Assembly (NCBI GenBank): GCA_947588805.1
Contig: CANPYR010000006.1
Span: forward strand, 7,595 to 71,594
From: an uncultured Clostridia bacterium
Lineage (GTDB): Bacteria > Bacillota > Clostridia > Oscillospirales > Ruminococcaceae
Length of the DNA stretch: 64,000 nt
Reading direction: 5' to 3'
Below the pieces are notes generated by a model. It was not told where the DNA came from. It worked only from the letters and a program-made list of their open reading frames with translations, and made no database searches. The position numbers and the translations under genes are program-made. This document shows, piece by piece, positions 2,589 to 61,070 of the stretch (positions are counted from its first letter, which is position 1; each line of letters starts with the position of its first letter).

Positions 2589-3581
2589 TTATTCCCATCT
2601 TTCCTCCGGCGTCCCTAAATCCAGCCTTATCTTAGTTCCCTTCCCCGGCTCCGACTCCGCGCTTATCCCTATCCCCAAATTCTTCGCGGTCTGCCTGCAA
2701 AGATAAAGCCCGAGCCCGCTCGCATGCTTTTCCGCTCTGCCGTTCAATCCTGTGAAGCCCTTTTCAAATATCCTCGGAAGATCCTGAGCGTCGATCCCTA
2801 TCCCCGTATCTTCAACCGTGAGAATATGCCCCGGCTCCATCCTGACCGAGATCTTTCCCTCGCGGGTGTATTTTAGAGCGTTCGATATTATCTGCTCCAA
2901 AAGAAACTCCATCCACTTCTGATCCGTCACTATCTTTTCCCCGGTCTTCCGATAGTCGAGCGAAAGCTTTCTGTCAATAAATTCCGGCGCGAATTTTTTT
3001 ATCACCGAACCGATTATCGCGTCCAGCTCCTGCTCTTTGAATACGTAGTCGGTATCGCTTGAATCCAGCCGCAAGTACGCAAGGACCATCTCCACATAGC
3101 TCTCGGTCCTCATAAGATCGGTCGTCAGCCGCCTTGATAACGGGGTATCCTCGGACTGAAGCGTCAGTCTCATCGCCGCTATCGGAGTCTTTATTTGATG
3201 CGCCCAGACGGTATAGTAGTCTATCATCTCGCGGTATCTCTCGGAATCCCGGTTCTCTATCTCTATTATCTCGTCTTTAAGCCCGAAAATTATATCCGAA
3301 TAGTCTCTTATTATCAGGCTCCCGCTCTCCGGCAGGGCTTCTATCTCTCTTCCGGAAAATGTCTTTAACGTTTCAAGGCGTTTATGAAGCTCCTTAAAGC
3401 GGTAAAAATCAGCAGCCGCCAAAACCGTTGCCGCGGCAATACAGATAGCCGCGGGATAGAGCGCAGCCTTTACAGGAAGTCTGTAAAGCAAAAAAGAACC
3501 TGCAAACACCGCCGAAAATCCCAAAAATATCAGAGCGGAGTTTTTTCTTTCCTTTAAATATTTTAATATCATTCCGAACAT
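2589..3581 (-). CDS. Intramembrane-sensing histidine kinase (BceS-like)
   Basis: The ORF track gives 2589..3650. I place the start at ATG 3581 (MFGMILKYL...), 5 nt after the regulator stop. Two N-terminal TM helices with a minimal loop, H-box WAHQIKTPI, GHKL blocks NALKYT, DTGIGI, GLGLYL. Confidence 0.9.
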   Translation of the reverse strand: MFGMILKYLKERKNSALIFLGFSAVFAGSFLLYRLPVKAALYPAAICIAAATVLAAADFYRFKELHKRLETLKTFSGREIEALPESGSLIIRDYSDIIFGLKDEIIEIENRDSERYREMIDYYTVWAHQIKTPIAAMRLTLQSEDTPLSRRLTTDLMRTESYVEMVLAYLRLDSSDTDYVFKEQELDAIIGSVIKKFAPEFIDRKLSLDYRKTGEKIVTDQKWMEFLLEQIISNALKYTREGKISVRMEPGHILTVEDTGIGIDAQDLPRIFEKGFTGLNGRAEKHASGLGLYLCRQTAKNLGIGISAESEPGKGTKIRLDLGTPEERWE

Positions 3582-3585
3582 AATC

Positions 3586-4257
3586 TCACTCCACGATATA
3601 ACCGACTCCGTGACGTGTGGAGATAAAGCCCGAAAGCCCCGCCGCGTCAAGCTTTTTTCTAAGCCGGTTCACGTTCACGGTCAGCGTGTTTTCATCCACA
3701 AAAGAATCGGTATTCCAAAGTCTTTCCATAAGTCTTTCACGGCTCACGACGTTTCCCCTGCTCTCCAAAAGGCAGAGAAGTATCCTGTACTCGTTAGGCG
3801 TAAGCGGGATGGCGGAGCCGTTATAGCTTAAGCTTCCGTCGCCTGTGTTCAGGATAGCGCCGCGGTGCTCGATCAGCGGAACCGAGCCGGAAAAGTCGTA
3901 GGTTCTTCTTAAAAGCGCCTGGATCTTCGCAAGAAGGACCGAAAGATCGAATGGTTTCGCGATAAAATCATCCGCGCCGAGATTCATCGCCATTATAATA
4001 TTCATGCTGTCCGAAGCGGAGGAGATGAAAATAATCGGGACTTTTGAAAGCTTTCTTATCTCCGAGCACCAGTAGTATCCGTCAAAAAACGGAAGGGATA
4101 TATCAAGAAGCACAAGCTGAGGGTCGGCGGCGGTGAATTCGCTCAGAACGGCTCGGTAGTCCTTCACCGTCACCGCGTTCATCCCCCAGAGCGCAGCCTG
4201 TTTTTCGACAGCCTGCGCGATAGAACGGTCGTCTTCGACTATAAATACGGTGTACAT
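3586..4257 (-). CDS. OmpR/PhoB-family response regulator (BceR-like)
   Basis: 223 aa. Receiver domain (FIVEDD, LLDISLP) plus a winged-helix C-terminal domain (LTPNEYRILLCL, TRHGVGY). Confidence 0.95.
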   Translation of the reverse strand: MYTVFIVEDDRSIAQAVEKQAALWGMNAVTVKDYRAVLSEFTAADPQLVLLDISLPFFDGYYWCSEIRKLSKVPIIFISSASDSMNIIMAMNLGADDFIAKPFDLSVLLAKIQALLRRTYDFSGSVPLIEHRGAILNTGDGSLSYNGSAIPLTPNEYRILLCLLESRGNVVSRERLMERLWNTDSFVDENTLTVNVNRLRKKLDAAGLSGFISTRHGVGYIVE

Positions 4258-4448
4258 ATTAGCTCCTTAGGTTGGTTTTTATTTGAGTATAGCACAGTTT
4301 TAGGGAGAATGCAAGACGTGCGTTGAGATATCAGAGGGCAGAAGGCAGATATCGGAATTACAAGGGTTTCGTCTTCGGCGAGGATTTTAAAAGATTGAAA
4401 TGATATGTGATGAGTGGCTGTTCTTGTGCAGCAAGCAGGGGAGGGGAG

Positions 4449-4970
4449 TGCGGCGGGATGAGCGGGAGAGGGCAGGAAAACATTGCCGGTTTTGTTCCCG
4501 TTCGACTGCCCTCAAAACAAAGCGTTAAAACTTGCTTTTCGGACTTCGCGGTCATAAACGACCGACCGCTCGTCCTCAAAGAGTTTTAATCGCGTTGTTA
4601 AACGACCGCTTCGGTTGTCTCACGGACAAAACTCGGCAAGTTTGGCGGGCGCAGTCGGTAGTGCTTCCGCAGGAAAGTAGCTCGTCCCGCCGCGCGCGCA
4701 GTGTTAGTCAGCGCGAAATGATATTCGGAAGCAGGAAGTTATAGGTTTAGATAGCAAAGCTTTATCTCTGCACAGTAGTAAAATTTGCGGCAGAGACCTG
4801 CGGTTATATTATGCAGGCTTTTTTGCAGTAAGTAACTGAGTTGTAGCCGCAAAAATTTAATCAGCACTGCGCAGCGCTGAGACCACGGCAAGATGAATAC
4901 GCGGGCGCGGCTTTCGATCCCAACAACCTTCTGCTTATCTTCCCCTTTGAGACTCCCACCCCGGGCGCAG
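4449..4970. repeat. Long inverted repeat, left copy (IR-L)
   Basis: The reverse complement of 8185-8708 aligns along the whole length. The outer ~212 nt (4451-4662) differ at only about 8 positions by hand alignment. The inner ~310 nt are clearly homologous but much more diverged. Confidence 0.9.
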
Positions 4971-5035
4971 GGAGTGTACAAATCGCCCTCATTATCCCCA
5001 CTAATTAAATCTGTCACCAACGGTGACACCTTGAA

Positions 5036-5069
5036 ATTCTGACAATCTGACTTCTGACTTCTGTCCTCT
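5036..5069. repeat. 7-nt array (CTGAC-type): attctgacaatctgacttctgacttctgtcctct
   Basis: Direct reading. Followed by a perfect 9-bp hairpin (5071-5093) and then the promoter at 5109. Confidence 0.85.
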
Positions 5070-5108
5070 TGATGTGGTCGTTTTGACCACATCTCGGGCG
5101 CAGCCCCC

Positions 5109-5137
5109 TTGACGCCGACCCACAAATATGCTATAAT
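5109..5137 (+). promoter_or_regulatory. Sigma-A-type promoter TTGACG-N17-TATAAT (TG-extended)
   Basis: TTGACG 5109-5114, TATAAT 5132-5137 preceded by atgc. About 38 nt upstream of ATG 5176. Confidence 0.65.
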
Positions 5138-5175
5138 CAATCATCCCCCCAATCACCAAAAAAGAGGTCCCCGCC

Positions 5176-5739
5176 ATGTCAAAAATATTCTTCATCTCCG
5201 GCCCCTGCGGCTGCGGGAAAACCACATTCTCAAACCTGTTCGCCCGGCGGCTTGTAAACGCTTCCGGACGGCCCGTATATATCATCCACGGCGACGACTT
5301 CCATCAGGGCTTTATCGAGCCCGAGGACAAGGGCGAATTCTTCGTGGACGGGAAAGCCTCCGACTCGGCAAAATGGGAGGATATCCTGAGATTCAACTGG
5401 GGCTGCATTCTTGAAACCGCCGGGCGAGCGCTTGAAGAGGGGCTCGACGTTGTGATAGATTATGTTATCGAGGATGAGCTCCCGCGCGTTATCGCGCTTT
5501 CCGAGAAATTTAGCGCCGAGCTTTACTATATCGTTCTCACTGCCGACAGTTCGGAGATAGAAAAAAGGATCCTTGAACGCGGCGATACCGACATGACGGA
5601 GCGCGCGATATTTTTAAAGAGAAAGCTGGAAGCCATGCCGGAAAATCGTGGCCGTCTGTATAACAACACCGGAAAAAGCCCGGAGCAGTCGGTAAAAGAG
5701 GTCGAAGCCGCGCTTGAAAAGTTCAGGGTAATATACTGA
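5176..5739 (+). CDS. Small P-loop kinase / AAA-family NTPase (substrate unknown)
   Basis: 187 aa. Walker A GPCGCGKTT near the N-terminus. Size and layout match small nucleotide or antibiotic kinases. Good promoter and RBS upstream. Confidence 0.7.
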   Translation: MSKIFFISGPCGCGKTTFSNLFARRLVNASGRPVYIIHGDDFHQGFIEPEDKGEFFVDGKASDSAKWEDILRFNWGCILETAGRALEEGLDVVIDYVIEDELPRVIALSEKFSAELYYIVLTADSSEIEKRILERGDTDMTERAIFLKRKLEAMPENRGRLYNNTGKSPEQSVKEVEAALEKFRVIY

Positions 5740-6271
5740 ATATTCGGTAATTTTAAGATGAATTTTGATAAATTAACTTGATATATCCTACCCTGCGTTA
5801 AGTTATGTGATAAATAGTCCCGAGACGATTATAGCGAGCGTAACAAAAGACATAATACGCGATCTGCGGATAAGCCCGGGGATGTATGTTGAATATCTCA
5901 GCCACCGAAAAAGCATTTAGAGATCTCCGTTTTCAAAGACGCTAAGCTATGATAGGCAGCTAACCGACATAAACGCCTGTAAACATCCAAACCTGAGCAA
6001 AGATTTTTAGTATGGCGATATGCTATAATGTCCTCAGGAAAGGAGAAGCGAATACTATGCGGGATTTACCCCCTCAAGAATAAAACTCAAGCTCACAAAA
6101 CGATGTTTAGTCATTAAACAGCGTATCCGATAAAAAATACCGTCCGCACGCCGAAAAGCCGATGCGCGGGCGGTGATTTATACTCTTGCGCAGGGACAGA
6201 CGGTCAAAAGACTGTGTATCCGCGCGCAATATTTGTTCCTGACGGATTTTAAAACTCTTTGAAAACCGAAA

Positions 6272-6729
6272 TCATCTCAGACGTTTTTCCATTGTGATTT
6301 CGTCGTCATAACGTTCCCCGGTCGAATAGAAGCCGAGTTTTTCATATAGGTTCTTCGCGGCTTCATTTCCGTCGATATAGCACAGAACGACCTTGTCAAA
6401 TTTGCCGTCGCGCTCCATTCTCTCTAAAATCAGGCGCGCAGCTTCTGTTCCGAAACCTCTTCCCCGGTAGCGCTCGTTTATAAAAAGCCGGCTGAAATCG
6501 TACGCGTTCATTTCATTCAGATCGTAATATAACGCCATTCCCACGGGAATACCGTCACTATAGACGACAAAGGCGTTGCTTCTGTATTTACGGTAGGCGT
6601 ATGCCCTTGCAAGAAGTCCCGCACTGTCGGATACGTAATTTTTTGAGCTTCGGAAACCTTCAGACCTAATCTCCGATTTTCCGGATCTATCTCCTCTAAT
6701 CTGATCGCCGATTTATTCCCTCCAATCAA
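6272..6729 (-). pseudogene. GNAT-family N-acetyltransferase interrupted by a 1-nt frameshift in a homopolymer
   Basis: ORFs 6517..6729 and 6272..6544 are the two halves of one GNAT. Adding one base to the A6 run (plus-strand T6 at 6639-6644) restores ...SEAQKNYVSDSAGLLARAYAYRKYRSNAFVVYSDGIPVGMALYYD...RYRGRGFG. Confidence 0.7.
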
Positions 6730-6827
6730 AGAATATCAAAAAATTTCCGTCTAACAGCCGTACTCTTATATTTCACATCAACCGTCAAAAACCGAAGCGT
6801 TCCTATATTATCGTTCCGCGCACATAA

Positions 6828-6864
6828 ATTCTGACCTCTGACCTCTGACTCTCTGTCCTCTAAT
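6828..6864. repeat. 7-nt array (CTGAC/CTCTAA-type) abutting the bcp stop
   Basis: attctgacctctgacctctgactctctgtcctctaat. The bcp TAG stop (complement of 6860-6862) is the TAG of the last TTAGAGG unit. Confidence 0.85.
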
Positions 6865-7318
6865 CGCGTATATCCGCAAGAGTCTCGGCGGGGTTTTCGG
6901 CAGCCTTCGCCTTGGCATAGATTTTCTCTATCTTCCCGTCCTTGTCTATAAGAAAAGTCGTCCTCACTACTCCCATAGACGTTTTCCCGTAAAGCTTCTT
7001 TTCCTGCCACACCCCGTAAGCCTTTATCGCTTCAAGCTCGGGATCCGAAAGGATGGTGAAATTAAGCCCGTACTGCTCCGCAAATTTTTTATGCGAAGCG
7101 ACGCTGTCCTTGCTTACGCCTAAAATGACCGAGCCGCGCTCTGTTATCTCGGGCTTGAGATCCCTAAACCCGCAGGCCTGTTTCGTACATCCCGAGGTAT
7201 TGTCCTTGGGATAAAAATAGAGTATAACCCGCTTTCCACGGTAGTCCGAGAGCCTATGCGCTTCGCCGCTTTGATCCAAAAGCTCAAAATCCGGCGCTGT
7301 CTGTCCGATTTCCGGCAT
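6860..7318 (-). CDS. bcp: Thiol peroxidase Bcp/PrxQ (peroxiredoxin)
   Basis: 152 aa. Signature YFYPKDNTSGCTKQAC with CxxxxC. Confidence 0.95.
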   Translation of the reverse strand: MPEIGQTAPDFELLDQSGEAHRLSDYRGKRVILYFYPKDNTSGCTKQACGFRDLKPEITERGSVILGVSKDSVASHKKFAEQYGLNFTILSDPELEAIKAYGVWQEKKLYGKTSMGVVRTTFLIDKDGKIEKIYAKAKAAENPAETLADIRD

Positions 7319-7981
7319 TTACTTTTCCTCCCCGTTATTTTTAATATTTTTGATATTTTTAATATTTTTAATATTCTCCGGCATGATCCAGAAACTGTTC
7401 ATACCGTGAAGATAAGTCTTAGCGCCCTTCGGCATCTGAACAAGCGCGTTGAAAGCGTTCATGTAGTCGCCCGCACCCATTCCTACCGCCATCGCTCCCC
7501 AGAGTCCTATGTACCAAAGCTCAGGAAAGATCATCCATAAAATATAGGGGATCATGCCGAAAACGACGTTCGGGAGCATGCACATAATGACAAACCGAGC
7601 CTTTGAGAACAGCTCCGGCGCGACTACGAAGCAGAGTCCCTTCTTAAGATTTGTATACATATACGCGTCGCCCTTGCAGCAGACCGCGTGAAGAAATTCG
7701 TGGGGGACTATCAGTATAAGCGTGCTTAATAAGCAGATTGCGACAAAGACCGCCAAGTACGGGATAAGACCGAATTTATCGATGAATTTACCTACTCCTT
7801 CATTCCCGAAGATCATCACCGGAACGATCAGAGCGAGGGTTATAACAGCCGACAGGGCGTTAAAAATTATCGGAAGCTTTTCGGCTGAAGGCTCCTTGAA
7901 CGGAACGAAGTCCGGCTCATGCTCGCGGGTGGGGAGGGCTTCATAGTTGCCGTCAAATTTTCCCATGTAGTGAAATTTCAT
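7319..7981 (-). CDS. Multi-pass membrane protein with an HExxH-like motif (DUF3267-type putative zincin peptidase)
   Basis: The ORF track start is GTG 8020. I prefer ATG 7981 (MKFHYMGKF...), 5 nt after AAGGAGG. HEFLHA motif within hydrophobic helices. The C-terminus NIKNIKNIKNIKN comes from a 9-nt repeat. Confidence 0.75.
   Translation of the reverse strand: MKFHYMGKFDGNYEALPTREHEPDFVPFKEPSAEKLPIIFNALSAVITLALIVPVMIFGNEGVGKFIDKFGLIPYLAVFVAICLLSTLILIVPHEFLHAVCCKGDAYMYTNLKKGLCFVVAPELFSKARFVIMCMLPNVVFGMIPYILWMIFPELWYIGLWGAMAVGMGAGDYMNAFNALVQMPKGAKTYLHGMNSFWIMPENIKNIKNIKNIKNNGEEK
7336..7376. repeat. In-frame 9-nt tandem repeat (tatttttaa x4) encoding (NIK)n
   Basis: Direct reading. Lies within the last codons of the 7319..7981 gene. 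Confidence 0.9.
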
Positions 7982-8040
7982 ATTTTCCTCCTTTTGGTTG
8001 GTCTGGTTATATTTTAGCACACGGGCAAAGGAATGTCAAT

Positions 8041-8127
8041 ATAGAAGACAGAGGTCAGAAGTCAGATTTGCGGGGAGAGCGATTTCTATCTTCTAACTTC
8101 TAACTCTCTAACTTTCTATCCTCTAAG
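8041..8127. repeat. Composite 7-nt array: TCAGARG units, GC-rich core, then CTTCTAA units
   Basis: atagaagacagaggtcagaagtcaga / tttgcggggagagcgat / ttctatcttctaacttctaactctctaactttctatcctctaag. Confidence 0.85.
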
Positions 8128-8184
8128 ATCAGCTCGCGTACGGAAGGACAAAGGACGGCGAGTCGTGCGCGTCAGCGCACTGGG

Positions 8185-8708
8185 CTGCGCCCGGGGTGGG
8201 AGTCGCAAAGGGGAAGATAAGCAGAAGGTCGTTGTGAGCGAAAGCCGCGCCTGCTGCTTTATCGTGCCGTGGTCTCAGCGCAGCGCAGTACGGTTTAAAT
8301 TCTTGCGGCTACATCACAGTTACGGACAGAAAAAAACCTGTTCAATATAACCGCAAATCTCTGCCGCTGATTTTACTGCTGTGCAGAGATAAAGCTGTGC
8401 TATCTAAGCCTACGCACCCTGCTTCTGAATATCATTTCGCGCTGGACTCAACTTCGAGCACGCGGCGGCGGGATTCGCTACTTTTCTGACTCATCTCTAC
8501 CGACTGCGCCCACCAAACTTGCCGAGTTTTGTCCGTGAGACAACCGAAGCGGTCCGCTAACAACGCGATTAAAACTCTTTGAGGACGAGCGGGCGGTCGT
8601 TTATGACCGCGAAGTCCGAAAAGTAAGTTTTAACGCTTTGTTTTGAGAGCAGTCGAGCGGGAACAAAACCGGCAATGTTTTCCTGCCCTCTCCCGCTCAT
8701 CCCGCCGC
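8185..8708. repeat. Long inverted repeat, right copy (IR-R)
   Basis: Reverse complement of IR-L (4449-4970). Both ends match exactly: ctgcgcccggggtgggagtc at 8185 pairs with gactcccaccccgggcgcag ending at 4970, and tcccgctcatcccgccg near 8708 pairs with cggcgggatgagcggga at 4451. Confidence 0.9.
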
Positions 8709-8876
8709 CGCTAACTTTTCCAATATCTCCCATTTAATTTTTCACTTCGCATCCAAAATATCCAATCATTTCTATAAATATCCATATATCCCTCAATTTC
8801 CCTCGTCATTCTATACAAACATCCCATTCCCAAATTCAGCATTCCTACAAAATTTTACAATCCTATCAAGAGACTA

Positions 8877-8906
8877 TTGAAATGTTTCACCGTTTTGTTA
8901 TATTAT
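8877..8906 (+). promoter_or_regulatory. Candidate promoter TTGAAA-N18-TATTAT for the pilin-like gene
   Basis: Direct reading. About 100 nt upstream of ATG 9004. Confidence 0.45.
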
Positions 8907-9003
8907 AGTAAGGGAAAGTATGATTATAAGCCCCGCACTGTCGGTTTTTTTGTAAGATTAGCCGGCGGCTTCGGCGTGGCTTTTCGGAAAAGAGGACTGT
9001 GAA

Positions 9004-11748
9004 ATGCGGGACCGTAAGGGGTTTACCTATGTCGAGCTGCTGACCGTTTTGGCGATTTTGGCTGTAGTCGCTCTTACGGTTATGCCCTACGCGGCTTCCG
9101 AACAGAAGAGAATAAGACTTAAAATGCTCGACGATCAGGCTCACGCGCTCTATATGGAGTGCCAGCATAAGCTTTACAGCCTTGATTCGGCGGGAGAGCT
9201 CGGAGGGATCCGTAGCCTTTCAAACGCCACCGAGTCCGAGACGGAATATATTTTGTTCGAACAGGATTCGGAAGCGCTGAGCGATCTTACGGAGAGAAAA
9301 TTCGGATTTAAAAGCGCGATACTTGAATATTACGTTAATTCTCCTACAGTTCCGATTGTGAGGAGAGTTTATTATTCCGACAGCATGAGCCCGGAGCAGC
9401 TTGAGATACTTTATAAAAATCTCGGATATAAAATTGACGGGGACTTTCGGGAAAGATATATGATAGGATACAGCGGGGACGACGGGGTTCAGGAATTTCC
9501 GGAGCCGTTTCCTTACCGCCTGATACCGAAGATAAAGGTCATAAACGACGAGGAGCTGTATCTTGAAATAAGCTCCGACGACATTCCGAAGGACGATGAG
9601 AACTTAAGCGTTTCAGTGAATCTTTACGCGGTGAATCCCGACGGCGGCAGGGGAAGCTTTATAAGAAACGTCTCTACCGAGAGAACCGTTCCGGGGTACG
9701 ATCCCGAGGATATGTTCGATCCAGATAATAAAGTGCTTTTTCGCGCGCTTATAGATTCCGCGCAGTACGGAGGAACGGCATTTGCGGAGCTGAACCCGGG
9801 CTATACAGGGGTAAAGGTCGAAGCGGAAGCGGTAATTACATATGTGAAGACGGATAAAAGCGGCGGGGTGATCCGAAAAACATCAGAGGAGGACGCAAAG
9901 AAAGCCTCGGTAATTTTTGACCCGATGTTTGAGGACCGCGATCAGGCGGCTTTTTTAGTTTCTAAGGTAAGACATCTTAACAACCTGAGATATTTAAGCG
10001 GAAGCATAAACGTAGCTCTGACCTCGGATATAGATTTTTCGGATCTCGTTTCGCCTAAGTTTTATCGCGATACCGTCTCCCACAGCCTTTCGCTGACGCC
10101 TATATCTCTTAAGACGGGCGGCTTCACTGGAAGCTTCGACGGGCGAGGGCATATAATAAAGAATATAGTTTTAAACCCGTCCGGCGAACTGTTCGGGCTT
10201 TTTACCGAGATAAAGAGCGGGAGCGCGGTAAGAAATCTGCATTTGAGCGGGAGCGTAATTCTTGACGCGGGGGATTCAAAAATCGCCGGAGCGATATGCG
10301 GAAGACTTTGCTCGGGAGCGACCGTAGAGAACTGTTCGGTATCGGAAATAAAGATAAGAGCAGAAAGTCCCGGGACGGTCGGAGGGATAGCCGGCGAGTG
10401 CCTTGGAGAAATAAAAGGCTGCAGCGCGATATTTGAAGAATTAAAAGCAGGAATCGGTTCAACCGTAGGAGCAATAACAGGAAAACTCCTCGGCGGGACC
10501 GTTTTTTTATCCCACAGCGGCGGGAAGATCATATCCGGCTCCGGCTCGGAGCTTAACGGGATAGCCGGAGGAACCGACGGGATAATAAGAAACTGCTACA
10601 GCGAATGCAGTACGGGATATATTAACGGCTCGGAATTTTACGCGCTGGGAAGCGTGACATGCAAAAATTCTCAGGCTGCGGCGGAATGCTCCTGGATAAG
10701 CATAGGGAAAGAGGAGCGCTTGCCGAGGGACGATATTTCTGTCCCGGGATTTGATACCGCGTACAGGCGTTACAGAAACGGGGAGATATATTCGGGCTTT
10801 GCAATTCCGGAGAGCGTTAAAACGGATTACGGGCCGACAAGATTCGGAAGCGACGCGCTGCCAGAGCCGAGAGGACTTATAGGGATAGTTAAAGTAAGAT
10901 ATGACGGCGGGAACGGATATGAATATGAATTGCGGGAAAGCTTCGACGGTTACGGAAACGACTCCGAAAATTTTCCGAGGATAGAATGGTACAGTCCTCG
11001 CGACGGCGAAGAGAGATATTATATTTTCAGAAACGCTTTTTCCTATCCCGAGGGCGGGGAGGACGGCTGGGAGGTAATTACCGACGGCGAGCTGAGCGAT
11101 GAGGGGACAACGGATTTTTATGTGTATATGAGGGTAACGGATACCGAGCTGGTGACTCTGAGGTTCGGGGATACGGCGCGGGACGTTGAGATTGAGGAGA
11201 GGGAGGAAGAGGAAGAAGTAAAGGAAAAGGGCAGCTTCGGTCTGGCGGCGGTGATGTATGACGAGTGGGCGGGATTTGACGAGTATACTTTTTCACCGAT
11301 CCCCGGCTACGTATTTTATTATCAGTACTTTGACGAGACAGGGCAGATACGCTTACGAGACGGCGGCGACAGCAGAGATCCCGCGGATATCCTGCCATGG
11401 CTTGAGGAGTTCAGCTTTAACGATCCCGAGGATTTGCAGACAAAAATCTTTATCTTCTGGACGAAAACCCTTGAATGCAAGAAAAGCTGGGACATAGAGG
11501 AACTTGACATAGACGGCGAGATACAATATTATTTCAGCGGCGAAGGCGCGGAGCCGTACGAGGATTCGACAGGCGTGAAATATATGGTTTACGAGCTCGG
11601 AGATTTCAGCGCGTATGAAGACTACGGAAGATTCAGCGCGACGTTTAACGCCCCGGGCTGGGAAAAGAGCAGAAAGCTCACAGTTTACGCGAGGGAGTCT
11701 CCGGGAGAGGGGATATACATTCCGCAGTTTGAGGGTTCCGGGCCTTAG
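9004..11748 (+). CDS. Very large protein with a prepilin-type N-terminal cleavage/methylation signal and GLUG-motif repeats
   Basis: 914 aa. The N-terminus MRDRKGFTYVELLTVLAILAVVAL has G-1/F+1/E+5 followed by a hydrophobic helix. The central region carries GLUG-like repeats (GLFTEI, GGIAGEC, NGIAGGTDGIIRNCYS). The C-terminal part is acidic. Confidence 0.8.
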   Translation: MRDRKGFTYVELLTVLAILAVVALTVMPYAASEQKRIRLKMLDDQAHALYMECQHKLYSLDSAGELGGIRSLSNATESETEYILFEQDSEALSDLTERKFGFKSAILEYYVNSPTVPIVRRVYYSDSMSPEQLEILYKNLGYKIDGDFRERYMIGYSGDDGVQEFPEPFPYRLIPKIKVINDEELYLEISSDDIPKDDENLSVSVNLYAVNPDGGRGSFIRNVSTERTVPGYDPEDMFDPDNKVLFRALIDSAQYGGTAFAELNPGYTGVKVEAEAVITYVKTDKSGGVIRKTSEEDAKKASVIFDPMFEDRDQAAFLVSKVRHLNNLRYLSGSINVALTSDIDFSDLVSPKFYRDTVSHSLSLTPISLKTGGFTGSFDGRGHIIKNIVLNPSGELFGLFTEIKSGSAVRNLHLSGSVILDAGDSKIAGAICGRLCSGATVENCSVSEIKIRAESPGTVGGIAGECLGEIKGCSAIFEELKAGIGSTVGAITGKLLGGTVFLSHSGGKIISGSGSELNGIAGGTDGIIRNCYSECSTGYINGSEFYALGSVTCKNSQAAAECSWISIGKEERLPRDDISVPGFDTAYRRYRNGEIYSGFAIPESVKTDYGPTRFGSDALPEPRGLIGIVKVRYDGGNGYEYELRESFDGYGNDSENFPRIEWYSPRDGEERYYIFRNAFSYPEGGEDGWEVITDGELSDEGTTDFYVYMRVTDTELVTLRFGDTARDVEIEEREEEEEVKEKGSFGLAAVMYDEWAGFDEYTFSPIPGYVFYYQYFDETGQIRLRDGGDSRDPADILPWLEEFSFNDPEDLQTKIFIFWTKTLECKKSWDIEELDIDGEIQYYFSGEGAEPYEDSTGVKYMVYELGDFSAYEDYGRFSATFNAPGWEKSRKLTVYARESPGEGIYIPQFEGSGP

Positions 11749-13928: not shown

Positions 13929-14266
13929 ATAAATACCTCCGGAAGCTGGAAATACAGATGATAAAAATAGGATGTGAAGAGGGAAGAGTTTATATTACAA
14001 TTATACCAGAATTTTTTGAGATGTCAACGCAATTTATAAAATTTCATAATTTGAAAATCGCGGGAGGGGATGTGGAGATCGGATGGAGAAAATGTGATTT
14101 TTTTGGTCTGCGCCCGCTCTCACACCCATCCACTGCATAAAAAAGAAAAGCCCCAAAGCCAAGGACTTTCCCGTAAAATCTCTCCGTCGCTCCCCTTTAC
14201 CCCTCCGTCACGGGGAGCCCCAGTTTCACACATATTTCAAAATCTCGCCGAAAGCGAACCCCCGGG

Positions 14267-14301
14267 AATTCTGATATCTGATTTCTGACCTCTGACTTCT
14301 T
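14267..14301. repeat. 7-nt array (CTGAY-type)
   Basis: aattctgatatctgatttctgacctctgacttctt, followed by the GC hairpin gccgcggccgagccgcggc. Lies 3' of the 14327 gene. Confidence 0.85.
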
Positions 14302-20731: not shown

Positions 20732-21046
20732 ATGCATATTGAGATCACATCCGAGAATTTTGAAAAGGAGATAATAAACGCGGAAAAGCCGGTTATAGCC
20801 GACTTCTGGGCCGAATGGTGCGGCCCTTGCAGAATGATGGCTCCGGTTTTGGAGGAGATCTCCGAGGAGAGAAGCGATATCACCGTCGCGAAGATAAACG
20901 TAGACGACGAGGGAGAGCTTGCGAATAAATTTAACGTGAACGCGATCCCGACGGTTATTTTATTCAAGGACGGTAAAGCCGCAGCGACTTCGGTGGGGTA
21001 TAAGGAGAAGGAGCAGCTGCTTAAGGATTTGGGGATTAGAGGTTAG
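20732..21046 (+). CDS. trxA: Thioredoxin
   Basis: 104 aa. WCGPC active site. Confidence 0.95.
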   Translation: MHIEITSENFEKEIINAEKPVIADFWAEWCGPCRMMAPVLEEISEERSDITVAKINVDDEGELANKFNVNAIPTVILFKDGKAAATSVGYKEKEQLLKDLGIRG

Positions 21047-21084
21047 AAGTTAGAGGTTAGAGATTAGAGGTTAGAAATTAGAAG
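21035..21084. repeat. 7-nt array, seven TTAGARG units, beginning inside the last codons of trxA
   Basis: attagaggttagaagttagaggttagagattagaggttagaaattagaag. The trxA stop TAG (21044-21046) is part of unit 2. Confidence 0.95.
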
Positions 21085-22656: not shown

Positions 22657-22725
22657 TTTAGAGGTTAGCAAGTTAGAGATTAGAAATTAGAGATTAGAAA
22701 ATTAGAAATTAGAAATTATAGAATA
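22657..22725. repeat. 7-nt array, about nine TTAGARR units
   Basis: tttagaggttagcaagttagagattagaaattagagattagaaaattagaaattagaaattatagaata. Confidence 0.9.
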
Positions 22726-23484: not shown

Positions 23485-23520
23485 ACCTCTGATTTCTGAC
23501 CTCTGACCTCTGTCTTCTCA
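23485..23520. repeat. 7-nt array (CTCTGAY-type) containing the esterase stop codon
   Basis: acctctgatttctgacctctgacctctgtcttctca. The complement of 23518-23520 is the TGA stop of the 23518..24654 gene. Confidence 0.9.
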
Positions 23521-24715: not shown

Positions 24716-24798
24716 GTTAGAGGATAGAAAGTTAGAAATTAGAAGATAGAATAATCCCCGAAAATCTGACCTCTGACCTCTGATATCTGTCTTCTAAT
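24716..24798. repeat. Inverted pair of 7-nt arrays (TTAGARR units, short core, CTGAYMT units) ending 5 nt before a -35 box
   Basis: gttagaggatagaaagttagaaattagaagatagaata / atccccgaaaa / tctgacctctgacctctgatatctgtcttctaat. Confidence 0.9.
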
Positions 24799-24803
24799 AG
24801 CGC

Positions 24804-28937: not shown

Positions 28938-29100
28938 TTTTTAAAGTCCTTCTTTGCGCGGCGGGAGAAGCCCTGCCGAAAATTTATTCCCGCCCGGGTA
29001 ATCGCGTTATCCCGAACCGTCGATTCTATTTTATCACATAATTCCGAAAATTTCAATAACAAACTTATTAAGAATGCGTTACAAATGGGTAACAGATCAG

Positions 29101-29422
29101 AAAGGAAAGCGGCGGGGTGATTTGCTGCCATTTTATGTAACCGCCGCCGACTGCTCACCCCCGCAAATCCCCCCGCCGCCCAACTTTCTATCTTCTAACC
29201 CTCTAACTCTCTATCCTCTATAATCTGTCATCTGACTTCTGTCTTCTGTCATCTAAAAGGAAAGCGGCGGGGTGATTTGCTGCCATTTTATGTAACCGCC
29301 GCCGACTGCGCCCACCCGCCATCCCTAACCCGCAAATCCCCCCGCCGCCCAACTTTCTATCTTCTAACCCTCTAACCCTCTATCCTCTATAATCTGTCAT
29401 CTGACTTCTGATTTCTGTCTTC
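29101..29422. repeat. Tandem duplication (units 29101-29255 and 29256-29422) of a mosaic element: GC-rich hairpin module plus 7-nt arrays
   Basis: Each unit reads aaaggaaagcggcggggtgatttgctgccattttatgtaaccgccgccgactgc...cgcaaatccccccgccgcccaactttctatcttctaaccctctaac...tatcctctataatctgtcatctgacttctg...tcttct. Unit 2 has a ~14-nt insertion. The second unit ends at the spoIIP RBS. Confidence 0.92.
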
Positions 29423-29437
29423 TAAAAGGAGGTATAT

Positions 29438-30613
29438 ATGAAAAATAAAAACAAAAACGGTTCGGACTATTCGTTCGGGATCTTCGCCGCCGCTGCGGTC
29501 TTTACCGTTCTGACGGTGTTCTCGGGATCGCTATTGAGACTCCCCGACTCAGGATATGCAAAAGGTCTCGCGGTTATGTCTGCGCGGCTTATGAGTATCG
29601 GCTCGCAGCTTAAAAATACGCAGGAACAGGATGAAAACACGCTGGAGGAGCCGCAGCGCGCGCCGGTAATAAGGGAAAAAACCGCAAGACGGCTTATAGC
29701 GCTTTCCGGCTTCGGAGCTTGGGATATCGAAGCCGCGCCGGATGAAACGGAGCCTGATGATGATGAAACCGAGGAAGCGGCGGACGAAGACGGCAATTTC
29801 AAGCTTGAATATCCCGAAAGCTTGGGAGAAAGCGGCGGGAAGATCATAAGAAAGACGTATACATACCGTCCGTCCGCGACATATCTTGAGCTTCCCGGCG
29901 GGGGAATGCTCAGAAACTGCACAGATATCGATCCCGAGTATCTTTTGGAGCAGGCGCAGAGAAAGCCTGATTTTTCTTCGGATGAAAACGGTCCGCTCGT
30001 GCTTATTATGCATACCCACACGACCGAAAGCTATGAACCGACCGAGAGAGACAGATACGATAAGGATTTTTCTTCAAGAACGACAGATCTTGAAAAGAGC
30101 GTCGCGAAGGTCGGAGAGATGATAGCAAACGAGCTTGAAAAAGAGGGGATAGGAGTTATACACGACGTTACGGTCCATGATTATCCGAGATACACCGGAG
30201 CTTACGACAGAAGCGCGGAGACGGTGAGGGGATATCTTGAAAAATATCCGTCTATAAAAATTGTTATAGACGTTCACCGCGACGCAATAGAAGAGGACGG
30301 AGTGAGATACGCCCCGGTAGTGGAGATTGACGGAAGGTCGGCCGCGCAGGTGATGATAATTTCGGGCTGCAAAAACGTCCCGCAGTACAGATATAATTTA
30401 AGGATAGCAGCGCGGCTTCAGTCGCAGATGGAGAGCGATTATCCCGGACTTACAAGGCCGATACTGTTTGACGAGAGAAATTATAATCAGGAGTATACGC
30501 ACGGAAGCTTTCTTATAGAGATGGGTTCGAGCGCGAATTCCCTCGCCGAAGCTCTTTACAGCGGCGAGCTTGTAGGAAAAAGTCTTGCCAAAACGATAAA
30601 AGCCCTCGATTAG
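29438..30613 (+). CDS. spoIIP: Stage II sporulation protein P (SpoIIP amidase family)
   Basis: 391 aa. N-terminal TM helix. Conserved core LIMHTHTTESY, VIDVHRD, FLIEMGSSANS. Confidence 0.85.
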   Translation: MKNKNKNGSDYSFGIFAAAAVFTVLTVFSGSLLRLPDSGYAKGLAVMSARLMSIGSQLKNTQEQDENTLEEPQRAPVIREKTARRLIALSGFGAWDIEAAPDETEPDDDETEEAADEDGNFKLEYPESLGESGGKIIRKTYTYRPSATYLELPGGGMLRNCTDIDPEYLLEQAQRKPDFSSDENGPLVLIMHTHTTESYEPTERDRYDKDFSSRTTDLEKSVAKVGEMIANELEKEGIGVIHDVTVHDYPRYTGAYDRSAETVRGYLEKYPSIKIVIDVHRDAIEEDGVRYAPVVEIDGRSAAQVMIISGCKNVPQYRYNLRIAARLQSQMESDYPGLTRPILFDERNYNQEYTHGSFLIEMGSSANSLAEALYSGELVGKSLAKTIKALD

Positions 30614-30768
30614 AGGACAGAAGTCAGAAGTCAGAAGTCAGAGGACAGGCGGCGGGATTCGCTGCTTTTTATGAAACCGTTACCAACTGCGCCCTCCCGC
30701 CCGCCCTCCCCCGCAAATCCCGCCGCCGGTATCCCAACTAACAACTAACCACTAACAACTAACAACTA
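30611..30768. repeat. Mosaic element: TCAGARG array, 12-bp inverted repeat GGCGGCGGGATT/AATCCCGCCGCC flanking a GC-rich core, then CTAACAA array
   Basis: Starts with the spoIIP TAG stop (tagaggacagaagtcagaagtcagaagtcagaggacagg). Ends caactaacaactaaccactaacaactaacaacta, 2 nt before the TTGACA at 30771. Confidence 0.9.
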
Positions 30769-30770
30769 TA

Positions 30771-30799
30771 TTGACATCTCCTTTAAAATATGATAAAAT
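30771..30799 (+). promoter_or_regulatory. Promoter TTGACA-N17-TAAAAT
   Basis: Direct reading. Upstream of the GH127 gene. Confidence 0.6.
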
Positions 30800-32842: not shown

Positions 32843-32920
32843 CTTCTAACTTCTATCTTCTAACCCTCTAACCCTCTAACTTCTAATCTGCCTTCTGATT
32901 TCTGATTTCTGTCCTCTAAT
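32843..32920. repeat. 7-nt array, about eleven CTTCTAA/CCTCTAA/TTCTGAT units, between a terminator and a promoter
   Basis: cttctaacttctatcttctaaccctctaaccctctaacttctaatctgccttctgatttctgatttctgtcctctaat. Confidence 0.95.
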
Positions 32921-32925
32921 CGCCC

Positions 32926-34232: not shown

Positions 34233-34322
34233 ATAGACAGAGGACAGATAACAGAAATCAGAGGACAGAAAGGTGTGAGCGTGCAATTTCTGACTTCTGA
34301 AATCTGAATTCTGACATCTAAT
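34233..34322. repeat. Inverted pair of 7-nt arrays between convergent genes (possible bidirectional terminator-like hairpin)
   Basis: atagacagaggacagataacagaaatcagaggacagaa / 16-nt loop / tttctgacttctgaaatctgaattctgacatctaat. By eye the arms are roughly two-thirds complementary. Confidence 0.85.
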
Positions 34323-34327
34323 TGCTT

Positions 34328-52041: not shown

Positions 52042-52045
52042 TATA

Positions 52046-52153
52046 GCAGCAACAAAACCGGCTTTCATCATGAACGCGGGGTTTTGTCTGCGTGGCAACC
52101 GAATCGGTCGTTTTTGATGAGGGCAGCCACGCAGCAACAAAACCAGCTTTCAT
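52046..52153. promoter_or_regulatory. Two 23-nt direct repeats GCAGCAACAAAACCRGCTTTCAT (52046-52068 and 52131-52153) upstream of the ABC pair
   Basis: Direct reading. The repeats differ at one position and are spaced 85 nt start to start. They are followed by a TG-extended -10 (52209-52217) with no good -35. Confidence 0.5.
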
Positions 52154-52238
52154 TTCATCCCTAAAAACCCGCATTTCGTCCCGGATTCTACACCCGGGAC
52201 GATTTTTATGCTATAATAGCCGCAAGAGGTGATAATAT

Positions 52239-60721: not shown

Positions 60722-60905
60722 GCTTTTTGCTCCTTTCGCAGTTTCTGCTCTAAGTATATCACCGTGAGTAAAGAAATTAAATTGTGATTTTAAACAAAGT
60801 TATAGAATGAGATTTGGAGGATTAGACGGAGTCTGACCGCTTGTGCGCGAAAAACGACCGATTGTGTAATCGTGGGTTGAAATTAGAGCGGAACGGGGGT
60901 AGGCT

Positions 60906-61026
60906 TTTAGATGTTAGAGGGTTAGATGGTTAGAAGATTAGAAGATTAGAAGATAGAATTCGGAGAGCGGCGGCGGGATGAGCTGCGCTGTCAGAGGACG
61001 GAATTGAGAAATCAGAAGTCAGAATA
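60906..61026. repeat. Mosaic element: TTAGAWG array, GCGGCGGCGGGATGAGC core, TCAGARG array (same orientation)
   Basis: tttagatgttagagggttagatggttagaagattagaagattagaagatagaa ... tcagaggacggaattgagaaatcagaagtcagaatac. Confidence 0.9.
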
Positions 61027-61070
61027 CAGCCCACGTTCACGCCGGATTCCGGCCGTCTGCGCCCGAAATA

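What the first reader, a model, noticed from the sequence alone, without database searches (positions are those of the whole stretch)
4449..8708. Pair of ~520-bp inverted repeats bracketing a 3.2-kb four-gene cassette
Positions 4449-4970 are the reverse complement of 8185-8708. The outer ~212 nt of each copy differ at only about 8 positions in my hand alignment. The inner ~310 nt are homologous but much more diverged, and some differences look compensatory in small hairpins (for example tgca...tgca in one copy versus acag...ctgt in the other).

The repeats enclose four genes: a P-loop kinase, a frameshifted GNAT, bcp and a DUF3267-type membrane protein. The cassette also holds a 530-nt gene-free stretch. 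There is no transposase or recombinase inside, and I see no target-site duplication.

Three explanations fit: a non-autonomous composite or MITE-like mobile unit with long terminal inverted repeats, a segment invertible by homologous recombination, or two convergent copies of a ~0.5-kb structured RNA gene. 7-nt arrays flank both copies.
Basis: seen in the sequence. Interest (0 to 1): 0.7.

Follow-up and report, generated by a model that had tools for sequence, protein, structure and literature searches.

The report
Two copies of a dispersed intergenic repeat
The two 520-bp inverted repeats are real, but they are two copies of a patchwork intergenic repeat made of hairpin elements nested inside one another and found elsewhere in this genome. 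They are not the ends of a mobile cassette, not a DNA switch, and not a single large RNA gene.

Summary
Window 4450-4972 is the reverse complement of 8185-8708 (87% identity). The outer 244 nt are 93% identical and the inner ~280 nt about 84-86%.

The interpretation changes. The outer 244 nt is a discrete element built of three nested palindromes, which I call F, DE and H:
- F: a GC-rich ~80-nt palindrome.
- DE: a ~120-nt hairpin inserted in F.
- H: an ~84-nt hairpin inserted in DE.

Each layer also occurs on its own elsewhere. F occurs three times at 29.1-30.7 kb of the window. DE occurs without H at 52.1 kb and in a second contig. H occurs alone in another genome and as a 75-nt tandem array. 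A third near-complete copy (C) lies at an unlinked locus of what appears to be the same organism.

Outer-module identity is about the same for all three pairs (91-93%). Inner identity is 84% for A-B but only ~47% for A or B against C. The two halves therefore have different histories.

No Rfam family matches. Conserved structure is limited to the nested hairpins; the inner half shows none. There is no target-site duplication, transposase or recombinase. The cassette's promoters lie inside it, so inversion would switch nothing. Every assembly seen has one orientation.

Verdict: a lineage-specific mosaic palindromic repeat family, comparable to BIME, BOX or Correia elements. Interest is modest.

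The parts
4450..4972 (+). Unit A, the full 520-nt repeat copy, in 'unit orientation'
8185..8708 (-). Unit B, the full repeat copy and reverse complement of A (87% identity)
4450..4693 (+). Outer module of A. F arms lie at about 4450-4472 and 4644-4693 and enclose DE (about 4473-4643). It is closed by the 10-bp helix GCGGCGGGAU / GUCCCGCCGC.
8465..8708 (-). Outer module of B, with the same nested architecture
4516..4599 (+). H hairpin (84 nt) nested in DE of unit A
8559..8642 (-). H hairpin nested in DE of unit B
4694..4972 (+). Inner module of A. It is 84% identical to B, about 47% to copy C, and shows no conserved structure.
8185..8464 (-). Inner module of B
5109..5137 (+). Strong sigma-70-like promoter (TTGACG-17-TATAAT, 11 of 12) for the kinase gene, inside the cassette
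8011..8039 (-). Strong sigma-70-like promoter (TTGACA-17-TAAAAT, 11 of 12) for the DUF3267-bcp genes, inside the cassette
8877..8904 (+). Promoter-like site for the 914-aa gene, outside unit B and downstream of it in F orientation
4384..4411 (-). Weak promoter-like site (9 of 12) between unit A and the response-regulator gene
5176..5739 (+). P-loop kinase gene (AAA_18 / AAA_33)
6272..6729 (-). GNAT acetyltransferase split over two overlapping frames (apparent frameshift). Only an 88-aa ORF is called here in other samples too.
6860..7318 (-). bcp / AhpC-TSA peroxiredoxin gene
7319..7981 (-). DUF3267 membrane protein gene (220 aa from ATG 7981)
4329..4349 (-). Heptamer array (TCTGCCY)n, 72 nt upstream of the response-regulator start codon
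5046..5066 (+). Heptamer array (TCTGACT)n upstream of the kinase promoter
6830..6850 (+). Heptamer array just after the bcp stop codon. It is complementary to 8046-8069.
8039..8126 (.). Heptamer arrays (TCTGACY on the minus strand at 8039-8066; TTCTAAC at 8084-8126) between unit B and the DUF3267 gene
29109..29181 (+). F1, an F-type palindrome standing alone and followed by heptamer arrays
29264..29350 (+). F2, an F-type palindrome standing alone. It is followed by heptamer arrays that abut the RBS of gene 29438.
30650..30728 (+). F3, an F-type palindrome 37 nt after the stop codon of gene 29438-30613. It is flanked by arrays and followed by a promoter at 30771-30799.
52075..52150 (-). E, a DE-type hairpin without H, whose second stem has fully covaried
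60968..60995 (+). Short F-arm remnant (GCGGCGGCGGGATGAGCTGCGC) between two heptamer arrays

Best explanation
Units A and B are two paralogous copies of a repeat-laden stretch of intergenic DNA. They are not a functional pair. Each copy has two parts with different histories.

Outer part (244 nt). This is a discrete, dispersed element made of three palindromes nested like an onion:
- F is a GC-rich ~80-nt palindrome.
- DE, a ~120-nt hairpin, is inserted in F after GACTGCGCCC.
- H, an 84-nt hairpin, is inserted in the loop of DE.
Copies of this composite stay about 91-93% alike wherever they lie. This is either because they spread recently or because copies are homogenised by gene conversion. 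The mosaic pattern of shared variants supports conversion.

Inner part (~280 nt). This is older flanking DNA, duplicated once in inverted orientation together with the element. It has since drifted to 84% identity with no sign of constraint.

Read in F orientation, every copy heads the same arrangement: palindrome, then a pyrimidine-rich heptamer array, then a promoter, then a gene. Here those genes are the response-regulator operon to the left of A and the 914-aa gene to the right of B. These two genes point away from each other, so the two copies are inverted relative to one another and happen to bracket the four genes between them.

Shown: the repeat, its nesting, its dispersal, the unequal divergence, the hairpin covariation, and the absence of mobility or switch features.
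Inferred: that the layers arose by insertion of one palindromic element into another. Also inferred is a local action on transcripts or DNA (terminator, insulator or hairpin), as for REP, BIME, BOX and Correia elements.
For: 1. Dispersal.
- Copy C (L093 7015-7267, also L094 and L095) comes from the same samples at the same ~3-4x coverage and is also on record from NCBI. It lies between a malic-enzyme gene and an SBP_bac_8 gene and matches unit positions 1-254 at 90-92%.
- Copy D (L095 9259-9376) and copy E (window 52075-52150) carry DE without H.
- F1, F2 and F3 stand alone at 29109-29181, 29264-29350 and 30650-30728, and they align to the two ends of the outer module.
- H stands alone in another genome (L096, GCA_947588775.1, between a recF-like gene and gyrB, 95% over 67 nt). 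It also forms a 75-nt tandem array at L093 1-300.

2. Different histories of the two halves.
- Outer identity: A-B 92.6%, A-C 91.8%, B-C 91.1%.
- Inner identity: A-B 84.0%, A-C 48.2%, B-C 46.1%.
- The drop falls at the closing helix of F (seen in the alignment).
- Variants are mosaic: B matches C within H, while A matches C on both sides of H. H of A shares its two variant sites with H of L096.

3. Hairpins are maintained.
- H: 94.5% of cells are paired and 5 pairs changed on both sides. No shuffle of 500 reached the observed score.
- DE: 88% of cells are paired and 3 pairs changed on both sides.
- In the two-copy test the outer module keeps structure better than random substitutions (1 of 200 on the plus strand). 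The inner module does not (17 of 200 and 101 of 200).

4. Common architecture.
- Promoter-like sites lie between the element and the co-oriented gene for B (8877-8904), C (L093 6938-6910) and F3 (30771-30799), and weakly for A (4411-4384).
- Heptamer arrays lie in the same interval.

5. Short-read contigs that enter the outer module repeatedly stop inside it. Examples are L005, L006, L008, L097, L110, L001 and L003. This is expected of a multi-copy repeat, although the assemblies are only 3-4x deep.
Against: - Only about 110 kb of this organism was available, so the genome-wide copy number is unknown. It could be small.
- No cognate transposase or REP-associated (RAYT) transposase, no clear target-site duplication and no empty site were found. 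'Insertion' of one layer into another is inferred from alignments alone. A modular RNA that gains and loses hairpins would give the same alignments.
- Exact-motif scans of 185,579 species genomes and of JGI metagenomes returned only chance hits. The family is very narrow or diverges fast.
- High H identity across two genomes (95%) and hairpin covariation are also what a functional RNA would show.
- Copy C may share weak homology with the first ~100 nt of the inner part (nhmmer extends to position 354). The inner part may therefore belong to the element after all.
Confidence: 0.6

Rival explanations
1. The unit, or at least its outer 244 nt, is a multi-copy structured non-coding RNA. It is transcribed in F orientation towards the response-regulator, 914-aa and malic-enzyme genes. 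It acts in cis on the neighbouring transcription unit or in trans. F, DE and H would then be RNA domains gained and lost during evolution.
For: - The F-orientation strand of A folds with z = -5.4, against -2.5 for the other strand.
- The hairpins show compensatory changes.
- Structure in the outer module is conserved between A and B.
- H is 95% identical in a second genome.
- All copies have a constant orientation relative to the downstream gene.
Against: - No Rfam family matches, even at E <= 10.
- No promoter-like site is predicted upstream of or inside the unit on either strand.
- Wobble pairs do not favour one strand. A has G-U pairs in the closing helix and in DE on the unit strand. C has two changes in H that are C-A mismatches on that strand and G-U pairs on the other (read).
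- Each 'domain' occurs alone and in tandem arrays, which is unusual for a single RNA.
- The inner half shows no structure conservation.
Confidence: 0.17
2. The 4.3-kb region is a non-autonomous composite mobile unit. A and B serve as long terminal inverted repeats, and a transposase encoded elsewhere moves the four genes.
For: - The inverted repeats bracket accessory-type genes.
- Homologues of the kinase (best non-self 72%) sit in unrelated contexts in other Clostridia.
Against: - There is no target-site duplication.
- There is no transposase or recombinase inside.
- No second copy of the cassette was found.
- The repeat occurs singly at the C locus and its sub-modules occur alone.
- The arms are only 87% identical and diverge most at the inner ends.
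- The loci of kinase homologues carry no unit.
Confidence: 0.05
3. The repeats mediate RecA-dependent inversion of 4973-8184, giving two genome isomers with a functional consequence such as phase variation.
For: Exact identity runs of 51, 42, 35 and 30 nt exceed typical minimal processing segments. This threshold is from my own knowledge. One Logan contig (L008) joins the response-regulator flank to an outer part carrying the B-type base at position 54.
Against: - The window and the assembled junctions (L087, L088) all have the same orientation.
- Both cassette promoters lie inside the segment and would move with their genes.
- No invertase gene lies nearby.
- A single shared base is equally explained by gene conversion.
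- The inner arms have drifted to 84% identity, so frequent exchange is unlikely.
Confidence: 0.08

Closest known systems
BIMEs / REP elements of enterobacteria (bacterial interspersed mosaic elements); comparison from my own knowledge
   Same: - Extragenic, dispersed and palindromic.
- Built as mosaics of smaller repeated motifs.
- Found between genes, where they can act as terminators, mRNA stabilisers or protein-binding sites.
- Other mobile elements are known to insert into them.
   Different: - REPs are 20-40 nt with a conserved GTAG head and are tied to RAYT transposases. Here the modules are 80-245 nt, carry no GTAG head, and no RAYT was seen.
- There is no sequence similarity.
- The nesting here is hairpin within hairpin, rather than alternating REPs joined by linkers.
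BOX elements of Streptococcus pneumoniae, and ERIC / RUP / Correia (NEMIS) elements; comparison from my own knowledge
   Same: - Modular (boxA-boxB-boxC) or long imperfect-palindrome repeats of 100-200 nt in intergenic regions.
- Variable module content between copies.
- Stable hairpins when transcribed.
- Effects on neighbouring gene expression.
   Different: - Different sequence and lineage (an uncultured cellulolytic-type clostridial MAG).
- Three nesting levels.
- Association with heptamer arrays.
- Copy number unknown.
- A target duplication (TA for Correia elements) is not evident.
Large structured RNAs of Firmicutes in Rfam (OLE, GOLLD, ROOL, HEARO, raiA)
   Same: Size class (0.25-0.5 kb), strong predicted folding and an intergenic location.
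   Different: - No covariance-model match at any threshold used.
- The unit breaks down into independently occurring hairpins.
- Half of it has no conserved structure.
Intergenic TAACTGA heptamer direct repeats of Beggiatoaceae, Cyanobacteria and Bacteroidetes (MacGregor 2015, PMC4679880, abstract read). This is the closest known parallel for the flanking 7-nt arrays only.
   Same: - Tandem heptamers of 2-6 or more copies.
- Almost exclusively intergenic, many within a few nucleotides upstream of start codons.
- A shared CTGA core: TCTGATA here is one base from a rotation of TAACTGA.
   Different: - Here several related heptamers occur (TCTGACY, TCTAACC, CAACTAA, TTAGAAG).
- The arrays also sit right after stop codons in the opposite orientation, so arrays bracketing a gene are complementary.
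- The host is a Firmicute.

Membership tests
Composite transposon / MITE with long terminal inverted repeats (whole 4.3-kb unit) | Terminal inverted repeats | tested here: met
   520-bp arms at 87% identity
Composite transposon / MITE with long terminal inverted repeats (whole 4.3-kb unit) | Target-site duplication flanking the unit | tested here: not met
   The flanks ...GGGGAGGGGAGT | unit A and unit B | CGCTAACTTTTCC share no direct repeat.
Composite transposon / MITE with long terminal inverted repeats (whole 4.3-kb unit) | A transposase inside, or an autonomous relative with the same ends | tested here: not met
   Pfam finds only a kinase, GNAT, AhpC-TSA and DUF3267 inside. No relative with these ends appeared in the phage, plasmid, genome or metagenome searches.
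Composite transposon / MITE with long terminal inverted repeats (whole 4.3-kb unit) | Presence/absence polymorphism (empty sites) | not testable with these tools
   No close relative lacking the cassette could be retrieved. All contigs come from the same species.
Invertible DNA switch (inverton / shufflon) | Both orientations present in sequence data | tested here: not met
   The window, L087 and L088 all show the same junction at unit B. These are only low-coverage assemblies, so minor isomers are not excluded.
Invertible DNA switch (inverton / shufflon) | A site-specific recombinase nearby | tested here: not met
   The neighbours are a response regulator, a histidine kinase, an ABC transporter and a 914-aa pilin-like protein. 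Further out lie a Cthe_2159-domain protein and a PBP5-type peptidase.
Invertible DNA switch (inverton / shufflon) | Inversion reconnects a promoter or coding end | tested here: not met
   Both strong promoters (5109-5137 and 8039-8011) lie inside the segment next to their genes.
Known large structured RNA families (Rfam 15) | Covariance-model match | tested here: not met
   No hit at the gathering score over the whole window. Only noise at E <= 10 over 4000-9200.
Single ~0.5-kb structured RNA gene (novel) | Structure conserved along the whole unit | tested here: not met
   The outer module is conserved (1 of 200). The inner module is not (17 of 200 and 101 of 200).
Single ~0.5-kb structured RNA gene (novel) | Own promoter and terminator, and a discrete transcript | tested here: inconclusive
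   No sigma-70-like site lies upstream of or within the units on either strand. The terminator-like hairpin at 4880-4861 is broken in B. Transcript data are not available.
Dispersed mosaic palindromic repeats (REP/BIME, BOX, ERIC, Correia-type) | Several dispersed copies confined to intergenic DNA | tested here: met
   A, B, C, D, E, F1-F3, an F remnant, H alone and an H array are all intergenic.
Dispersed mosaic palindromic repeats (REP/BIME, BOX, ERIC, Correia-type) | Palindromic modules combined in variable ways | tested here: met
   Alignments show F alone, F with DE, F with DE and H, DE alone, and H alone.
Dispersed mosaic palindromic repeats (REP/BIME, BOX, ERIC, Correia-type) | Hairpin potential kept through changes on both arms | tested here: met
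   H has 5 pairs changed on both sides and DE has 3.
Dispersed mosaic palindromic repeats (REP/BIME, BOX, ERIC, Correia-type) | High genome-wide copy number | not testable with these tools
   Only the 64-kb window and about 50 kb of other contigs of this organism were available.
Dispersed mosaic palindromic repeats (REP/BIME, BOX, ERIC, Correia-type) | Sequence homology to a named family, or an associated RAYT or IS | not tested
   No library of these DNA repeats was available and no RAYT or IS was seen in the sequence in hand. The call is therefore 'same kind', not membership of a named family.

The most novel reading that the evidence does not exclude
The nested palindromes and the heptamer arrays together form a lineage-specific system that marks the ends of transcription units. 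In this reading, F-type hairpins and mutually complementary (UCUGAYY)n / (RRUCAGA)n arrays mark the 5' and 3' ends of transcription units. They act at the RNA level, through 5'-3' end pairing, insulation, or binding of an abundant RNA-binding protein. Units A, B and C would be enlarged, transcribed versions carrying extra RNA domains.
Probability: 0.15. Interest if true: 0.6.

Novelty: new member of a known kind. Interest (0 to 1): 0.3.

Why it matters
For the finding itself the value is mainly in clearing up what it is. A striking pair of 520-bp inverted repeats around four genes is neither a new mobile cassette, nor a DNA switch, nor a new giant RNA. It is a by-product of a repeat family sitting in front of two genes that point away from each other.

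The family still has some interest. It is a clean example of palindromic elements nested three deep in an uncultured clostridial lineage, and one layer (H) is shared at 95% with another genome. It also explains why short-read assemblies of this organism break at these loci.

The accompanying heptamer arrays are the more unusual feature. Their orientation depends on whether they lie at the start or the end of a gene. They would deserve their own study.

Tried and rejected
- Rfam at gathering score (whole window) and at E <= 10 (4000-9200): nothing meaningful. The weak RsaOG and CRISPR-DR22 hits are noise.
- blastn of unit A against phage and plasmid collections: no match.
- Exact-motif scans, where every hit extended no further than the motif:
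  - viral contigs with 3 motifs;
  - Genome contigs with CGGACAAAACTCGGCAAG, 16 hits;
  - Metagenome contigs with TCGGACTTCGCGGTCATA, 12 hits.
  Both single-use scans are therefore spent. In hindsight they would have been better run after the sub-modules were known.
- Fishing with the spurious 80-aa ORF of the inner part: only itself.
- Homologues of the kinase as anchors for synteny: their contexts are unrelated and carry no unit.
- Exact look-ups of cassette and flank proteins to find an inverted isomer or an empty site: only the same arrangement, with contigs breaking inside the repeat.
- Protein-coding reading of the unit: rejected. The indels are 5, 1 and 1 nt, and most substitutions in the longest shared frame are non-synonymous.
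- tRNA-like nature of the 75-nt array or of the units: ARAGORN finds nothing.
- Integron attC, diversity-generating retroelement repeat pairs (DGR TR/VR), tracrRNA and CRISPR readings: considered from the sequence and dropped. There is no integrase, reverse transcriptase or cas gene. The 75-nt array has no unique spacers. The cassette genes have their own promoters.
- Literature searches for nested bacterial MITEs in Clostridia and for the heptamer sequences: nothing relevant except MacGregor 2015 on TAACTGA repeats.

Full report
**1. The observation**

The repeat finder on 3500-9700 recovers four collinear inverted-repeat segments. Together they cover 4450-4970 against 8185-8708 (244 nt at 93%, 27 nt at 96%, 83 nt at 87%, 152 nt at 86%). 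blastn gives one 527-column alignment at 87.5% identity, E = 0, and finds no further full copy in the 64-kb window.

A global alignment shows 64 substitutions (26 transitions, 38 transversions). It also shows indels of 5, 1 and 1 nt, so the sequence is not under coding constraint.

Pfam confirms the enclosed genes: an AAA_18/AAA_33 kinase, a GNAT split over two overlapping frames, an AhpC-TSA peroxiredoxin and a DUF3267 protein. It also identifies the flanks: a response regulator and histidine kinase on the left, and a 914-aa protein with an N-terminal methylation motif on the right. Nothing in the cassette is a transposase or recombinase, and the flanks share no direct repeat.

**2. First tests of the three proposed readings**

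- Rfam finds nothing at gathering score in the window and only noise at E <= 10 in 4000-9200.
- Strong sigma-70-like promoters lie between each unit and the adjacent cassette gene: 5109-5137 on the plus strand and 8039-8011 on the minus strand, each 11 of 12. The units are therefore not obvious leaders of those genes. An inversion of 4973-8184 would carry both promoters along with their genes.
- Phage and plasmid collections hold nothing similar.
- Exact look-ups of the cassette and flank proteins returned only low-coverage metagenome contigs of the same species. Every contig that crosses the junction at unit B has the window's orientation (L087, L088). Contigs that enter the outer part of a unit repeatedly stop inside it.

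**3. Finding more copies**

Gene callers had called short spurious ORFs inside the units. The inner-part ORF had no relatives. A profile of the outer-part ORFs found two relatives, and their contigs were decisive.

- Copy C (L093 7015-7267, also L094 and L095) comes from the same samples at the same coverage. The ORF that led to it (P0123) is on record from both NCBI and ENA, like the window's own proteins, so it probably comes from the same MAG. It lies between a malic-enzyme gene and an SBP_bac_8 gene and matches unit positions 1-254 at 90-92%.
- Copy D (L095 9259-9376) matches positions 2-66 and 159-201. It is the same element without the long central hairpin.
- L096 comes from a different genome (GCA_947588775.1) and lies between a recF-like gene and gyrB. 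It carries only that central hairpin, at 95% over 67 nt, and its basal stem is changed on both arms.
- L093 1-300 is a tandem array of 75-nt units. Each unit has the basal stem of the same hairpin with a different tip.

Inside the window, further pieces turned up:
- A DE-type hairpin at 52075-52150.
- Three solitary GC-rich palindromes at 29109-29181, 29264-29350 and 30650-30728.
- A remnant at 60968-60995.

**4. Anatomy**

Aligning the solitary palindromes (F1-F3) with the reverse complement of A, B, C and D shows that F corresponds to the two ends of the outer module. The ~190 nt between those ends is absent from F1-F3. That inserted block is the DE-type hairpin. D and E show DE without the 84-nt H hairpin that A, B and C carry in its loop. 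The outer 244 nt is therefore F containing DE containing H, and each layer also exists alone.

Both inner hairpins are maintained.
- For H, 94.5% of cells pair and five pairs changed on both sides. No shuffle of 500 reached the observed covariation score, and shifting the pairing register drops pairing to 29-49%.
- For DE, 88% of cells pair and three pairs changed on both sides, all contributed by E. The second stem of E reads GCUGCGUGGC / GCCACGCAG where A has CCGUUCGAC / GUCUCACGG.

Such symmetry is expected both for RNA or single-stranded-DNA hairpins and for paired transposon ends. It does not by itself say which.

**5. Two halves, two histories**

Outer-module identity is nearly the same in all pairs: A-B 92.6%, A-C 91.8%, B-C 91.1%. 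Inner-module identity is 84.0% for A-B but 48% and 46% against C. nhmmer extends weak homology in C only to about position 354. The change occurs at the closing helix of F.

A single element under uniform relative constraint would keep the inner-to-outer divergence ratio roughly constant. It does not. The outer composite has therefore either spread or been homogenised more recently than the inner DNA diverged.

The variant pattern is mosaic. B matches C inside H, and A matches C on both sides of H. H of A shares its two variant bases with H of the other genome. This points to exchange between copies.

I also tested structure conservation with only two copies. The real B was compared with versions of A carrying the same substitutions at random positions.
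- Whole unit: consensus energy better than all but 3 of 100 simulations on the plus strand and 12 of 100 on the minus strand.
- Outer module alone: 1 of 200 and 10 of 200.
- Inner module alone: 17 of 200 and 101 of 200.

The 'compensatory' impression in the inner half is not supported. The tgca / acag example is a hairpin kept in place but shifted by one base.

**6. Context and orientation**

Read in F orientation (the reverse complement of the orientation used for A above), every copy is followed by the same elements. First comes a pyrimidine-rich heptamer array or a degenerate G-poor version of one. Then comes a promoter-like site and a co-oriented gene.

| Copy | Promoter-like site | Gene |
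|---|---|---|
| B | 8877-8904 | 914-aa gene |
| C | L093 6938-6910 | malic enzyme |
| F3 | 30771-30799 | gene 30888 |
| F1 / F2 | none predicted; arrays abut the RBS | gene 29438 |
| A | 4411-4384 (weak) | response regulator |

The response-regulator operon and the 914-aa gene point away from each other, so their upstream elements are inverted relative to each other. That is what produces the bracket.

The 5' arm of F contains a short GC hairpin followed by a T-run (flagged). F3 sits 37 nt after a stop codon. A terminator or insulator role is therefore plausible for solitary F, but this feature is degenerate in A. The function is inferred, not shown.

**7. Verdict on mechanisms**

- Mobile composite: no target duplication, no transposase, no second copy of the cassette, and the arm occurs singly. 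Disfavoured.
- Recombinational inversion: exact runs of 51, 42, 35 and 30 nt make it physically possible. Only one orientation is seen, nothing would switch, and the arms have drifted apart.
- One 0.5-kb RNA gene: no family match, no promoter-like site, half the unit without conserved structure, and the rest separable into independent modules.

Best reading, at confidence about 0.6: two paralogous copies of an intergenic segment whose outer 244 nt is a member of a dispersed, nested, palindromic repeat family. It is the same kind of thing as BIME, BOX, ERIC or Correia elements but unrelated in sequence. Whether the layers move as DNA or are RNA domains remains open. I give the RNA reading about 0.17.

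**8. Limits**

- Both large exact-motif scans returned only chance hits.
- Only about 110 kb of the organism was available.
- Copy number, mobility, transcription and the state of close relatives could not be tested.

**9. Novelty and score**

This is a new member of a known kind, and interest is modest (0.3). The heptamer arrays noted below are the more unusual feature. A partial precedent exists in the TAACTGA repeats of Beggiatoaceae, Cyanobacteria and Bacteroidetes (PMC4679880).

Noticed in passing
Window-wide, e.g. 4329-4349, 5046-5066, 6830-6850, 8039-8126, 14270-14297, 21034-21082, 22671-22698, 23488-23515, 24730-24799, 29210-29258, 29379-29427, 30608-30649, 32845-32921, 34235-34323, 60905-61030: Tandem heptamer arrays (TCTGAYY, TCTAACC, TTAGAAG and CAACTAA types) number 18 in 64 kb against 0.02 expected, and all are intergenic. 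Upstream of start codons the coding strand reads (UCUGAYY)n, sometimes abutting the RBS. Immediately after stop codons it reads the complement, (RRUCAGA)n.
   Followed up: partly
Window 29393-29425 with 30610-30642; 6827-6850 with 8046-8069; 23488-23515 with 24730-24750; 34235-34269 with 34289-34323: Because of the orientation rule above, several transcription units are bracketed by mutually complementary arrays. Examples are gene 29438-30613 (33 nt, 88%) and the DUF3267-bcp operon (24 nt, 88%). The convergent pair at 34.2-34.3 kb could form a ~30-bp hairpin. This suggests 5'-3' UTR pairing or bidirectional termination, but neither was tested.
   Followed up: no
L093 1-300 (ENA ERZ27059666 NODE_1756; contig end): A tandem array of at least 4 nearly identical 75-nt units. 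Each is a hairpin with the basal stem of H and a different tip (GGCUCC GCA GGAGCC). It lies next to a Na/Ala symporter gene and runs off the contig end. ARAGORN finds no tRNA.
   Followed up: partly
L096 1525-2106 (GCA_947588775.1, CANPZQ010000144.1): In a different genome, the 580-nt spacer between a recF-like gene (plus an 84-aa gene) and gyrB carries the H hairpin at 95% identity. It sits inside a longer palindrome (GGGAACC...GGTTCCC) beside another 15-bp-arm palindrome. An element shared between genomes close to the usual replication-origin gene neighbourhood is noteworthy.
   Followed up: partly
Window 29096-29430: A ~155-169-nt composite (F palindrome, TCTAACC array, TCTGACT array) is duplicated in tandem at 93-96% identity, directly upstream of the RBS of gene 29438. 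No sigma-70-like promoter is predicted on that strand, so the whole block may be a long 5' leader.
   Followed up: no
Window 4331-4395 and 14232-14295; L095 8993-9030 and L093 300-345: Two further small dispersed modules. One is a heptamer array followed by ATATCRGAATT...GGGKTTCG..TTCGGCGAG..ATTTT, upstream of two different genes (80% over 65 nt). The other is GGTTTCGCCGGCCTTTCCTCAAAAGGCCGCAG, shared by two contigs. This organism's intergenic DNA is unusually rich in repeats.
   Followed up: no
Window 5740-6271: A 532-nt AT-richer stretch (GC about 42-44%) lies between the kinase and GNAT genes. It has no ORF above 40 aa and no Rfam match. The GNAT next to it is split over two frames, and only an 88-aa ORF is called there in the other samples too.
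   Followed up: partly
Window 8709-8880: A ~170-nt stretch almost devoid of G on the plus strand lies between unit B and the promoter of the 914-aa gene. It looks like a degenerate heptamer array. If transcribed, it would be C-rich, G-poor and unstructured, like a binding site for the Rho termination factor.
   Followed up: no
Window 52043-52160 (minus strand): The DE-type hairpin E is flanked by a 23-nt direct repeat (ATGAAAGCYGGTTTTGTTGCTGC). This suggests a partial tandem duplication at the 3' end of gene 51364-52041.
   Followed up: no
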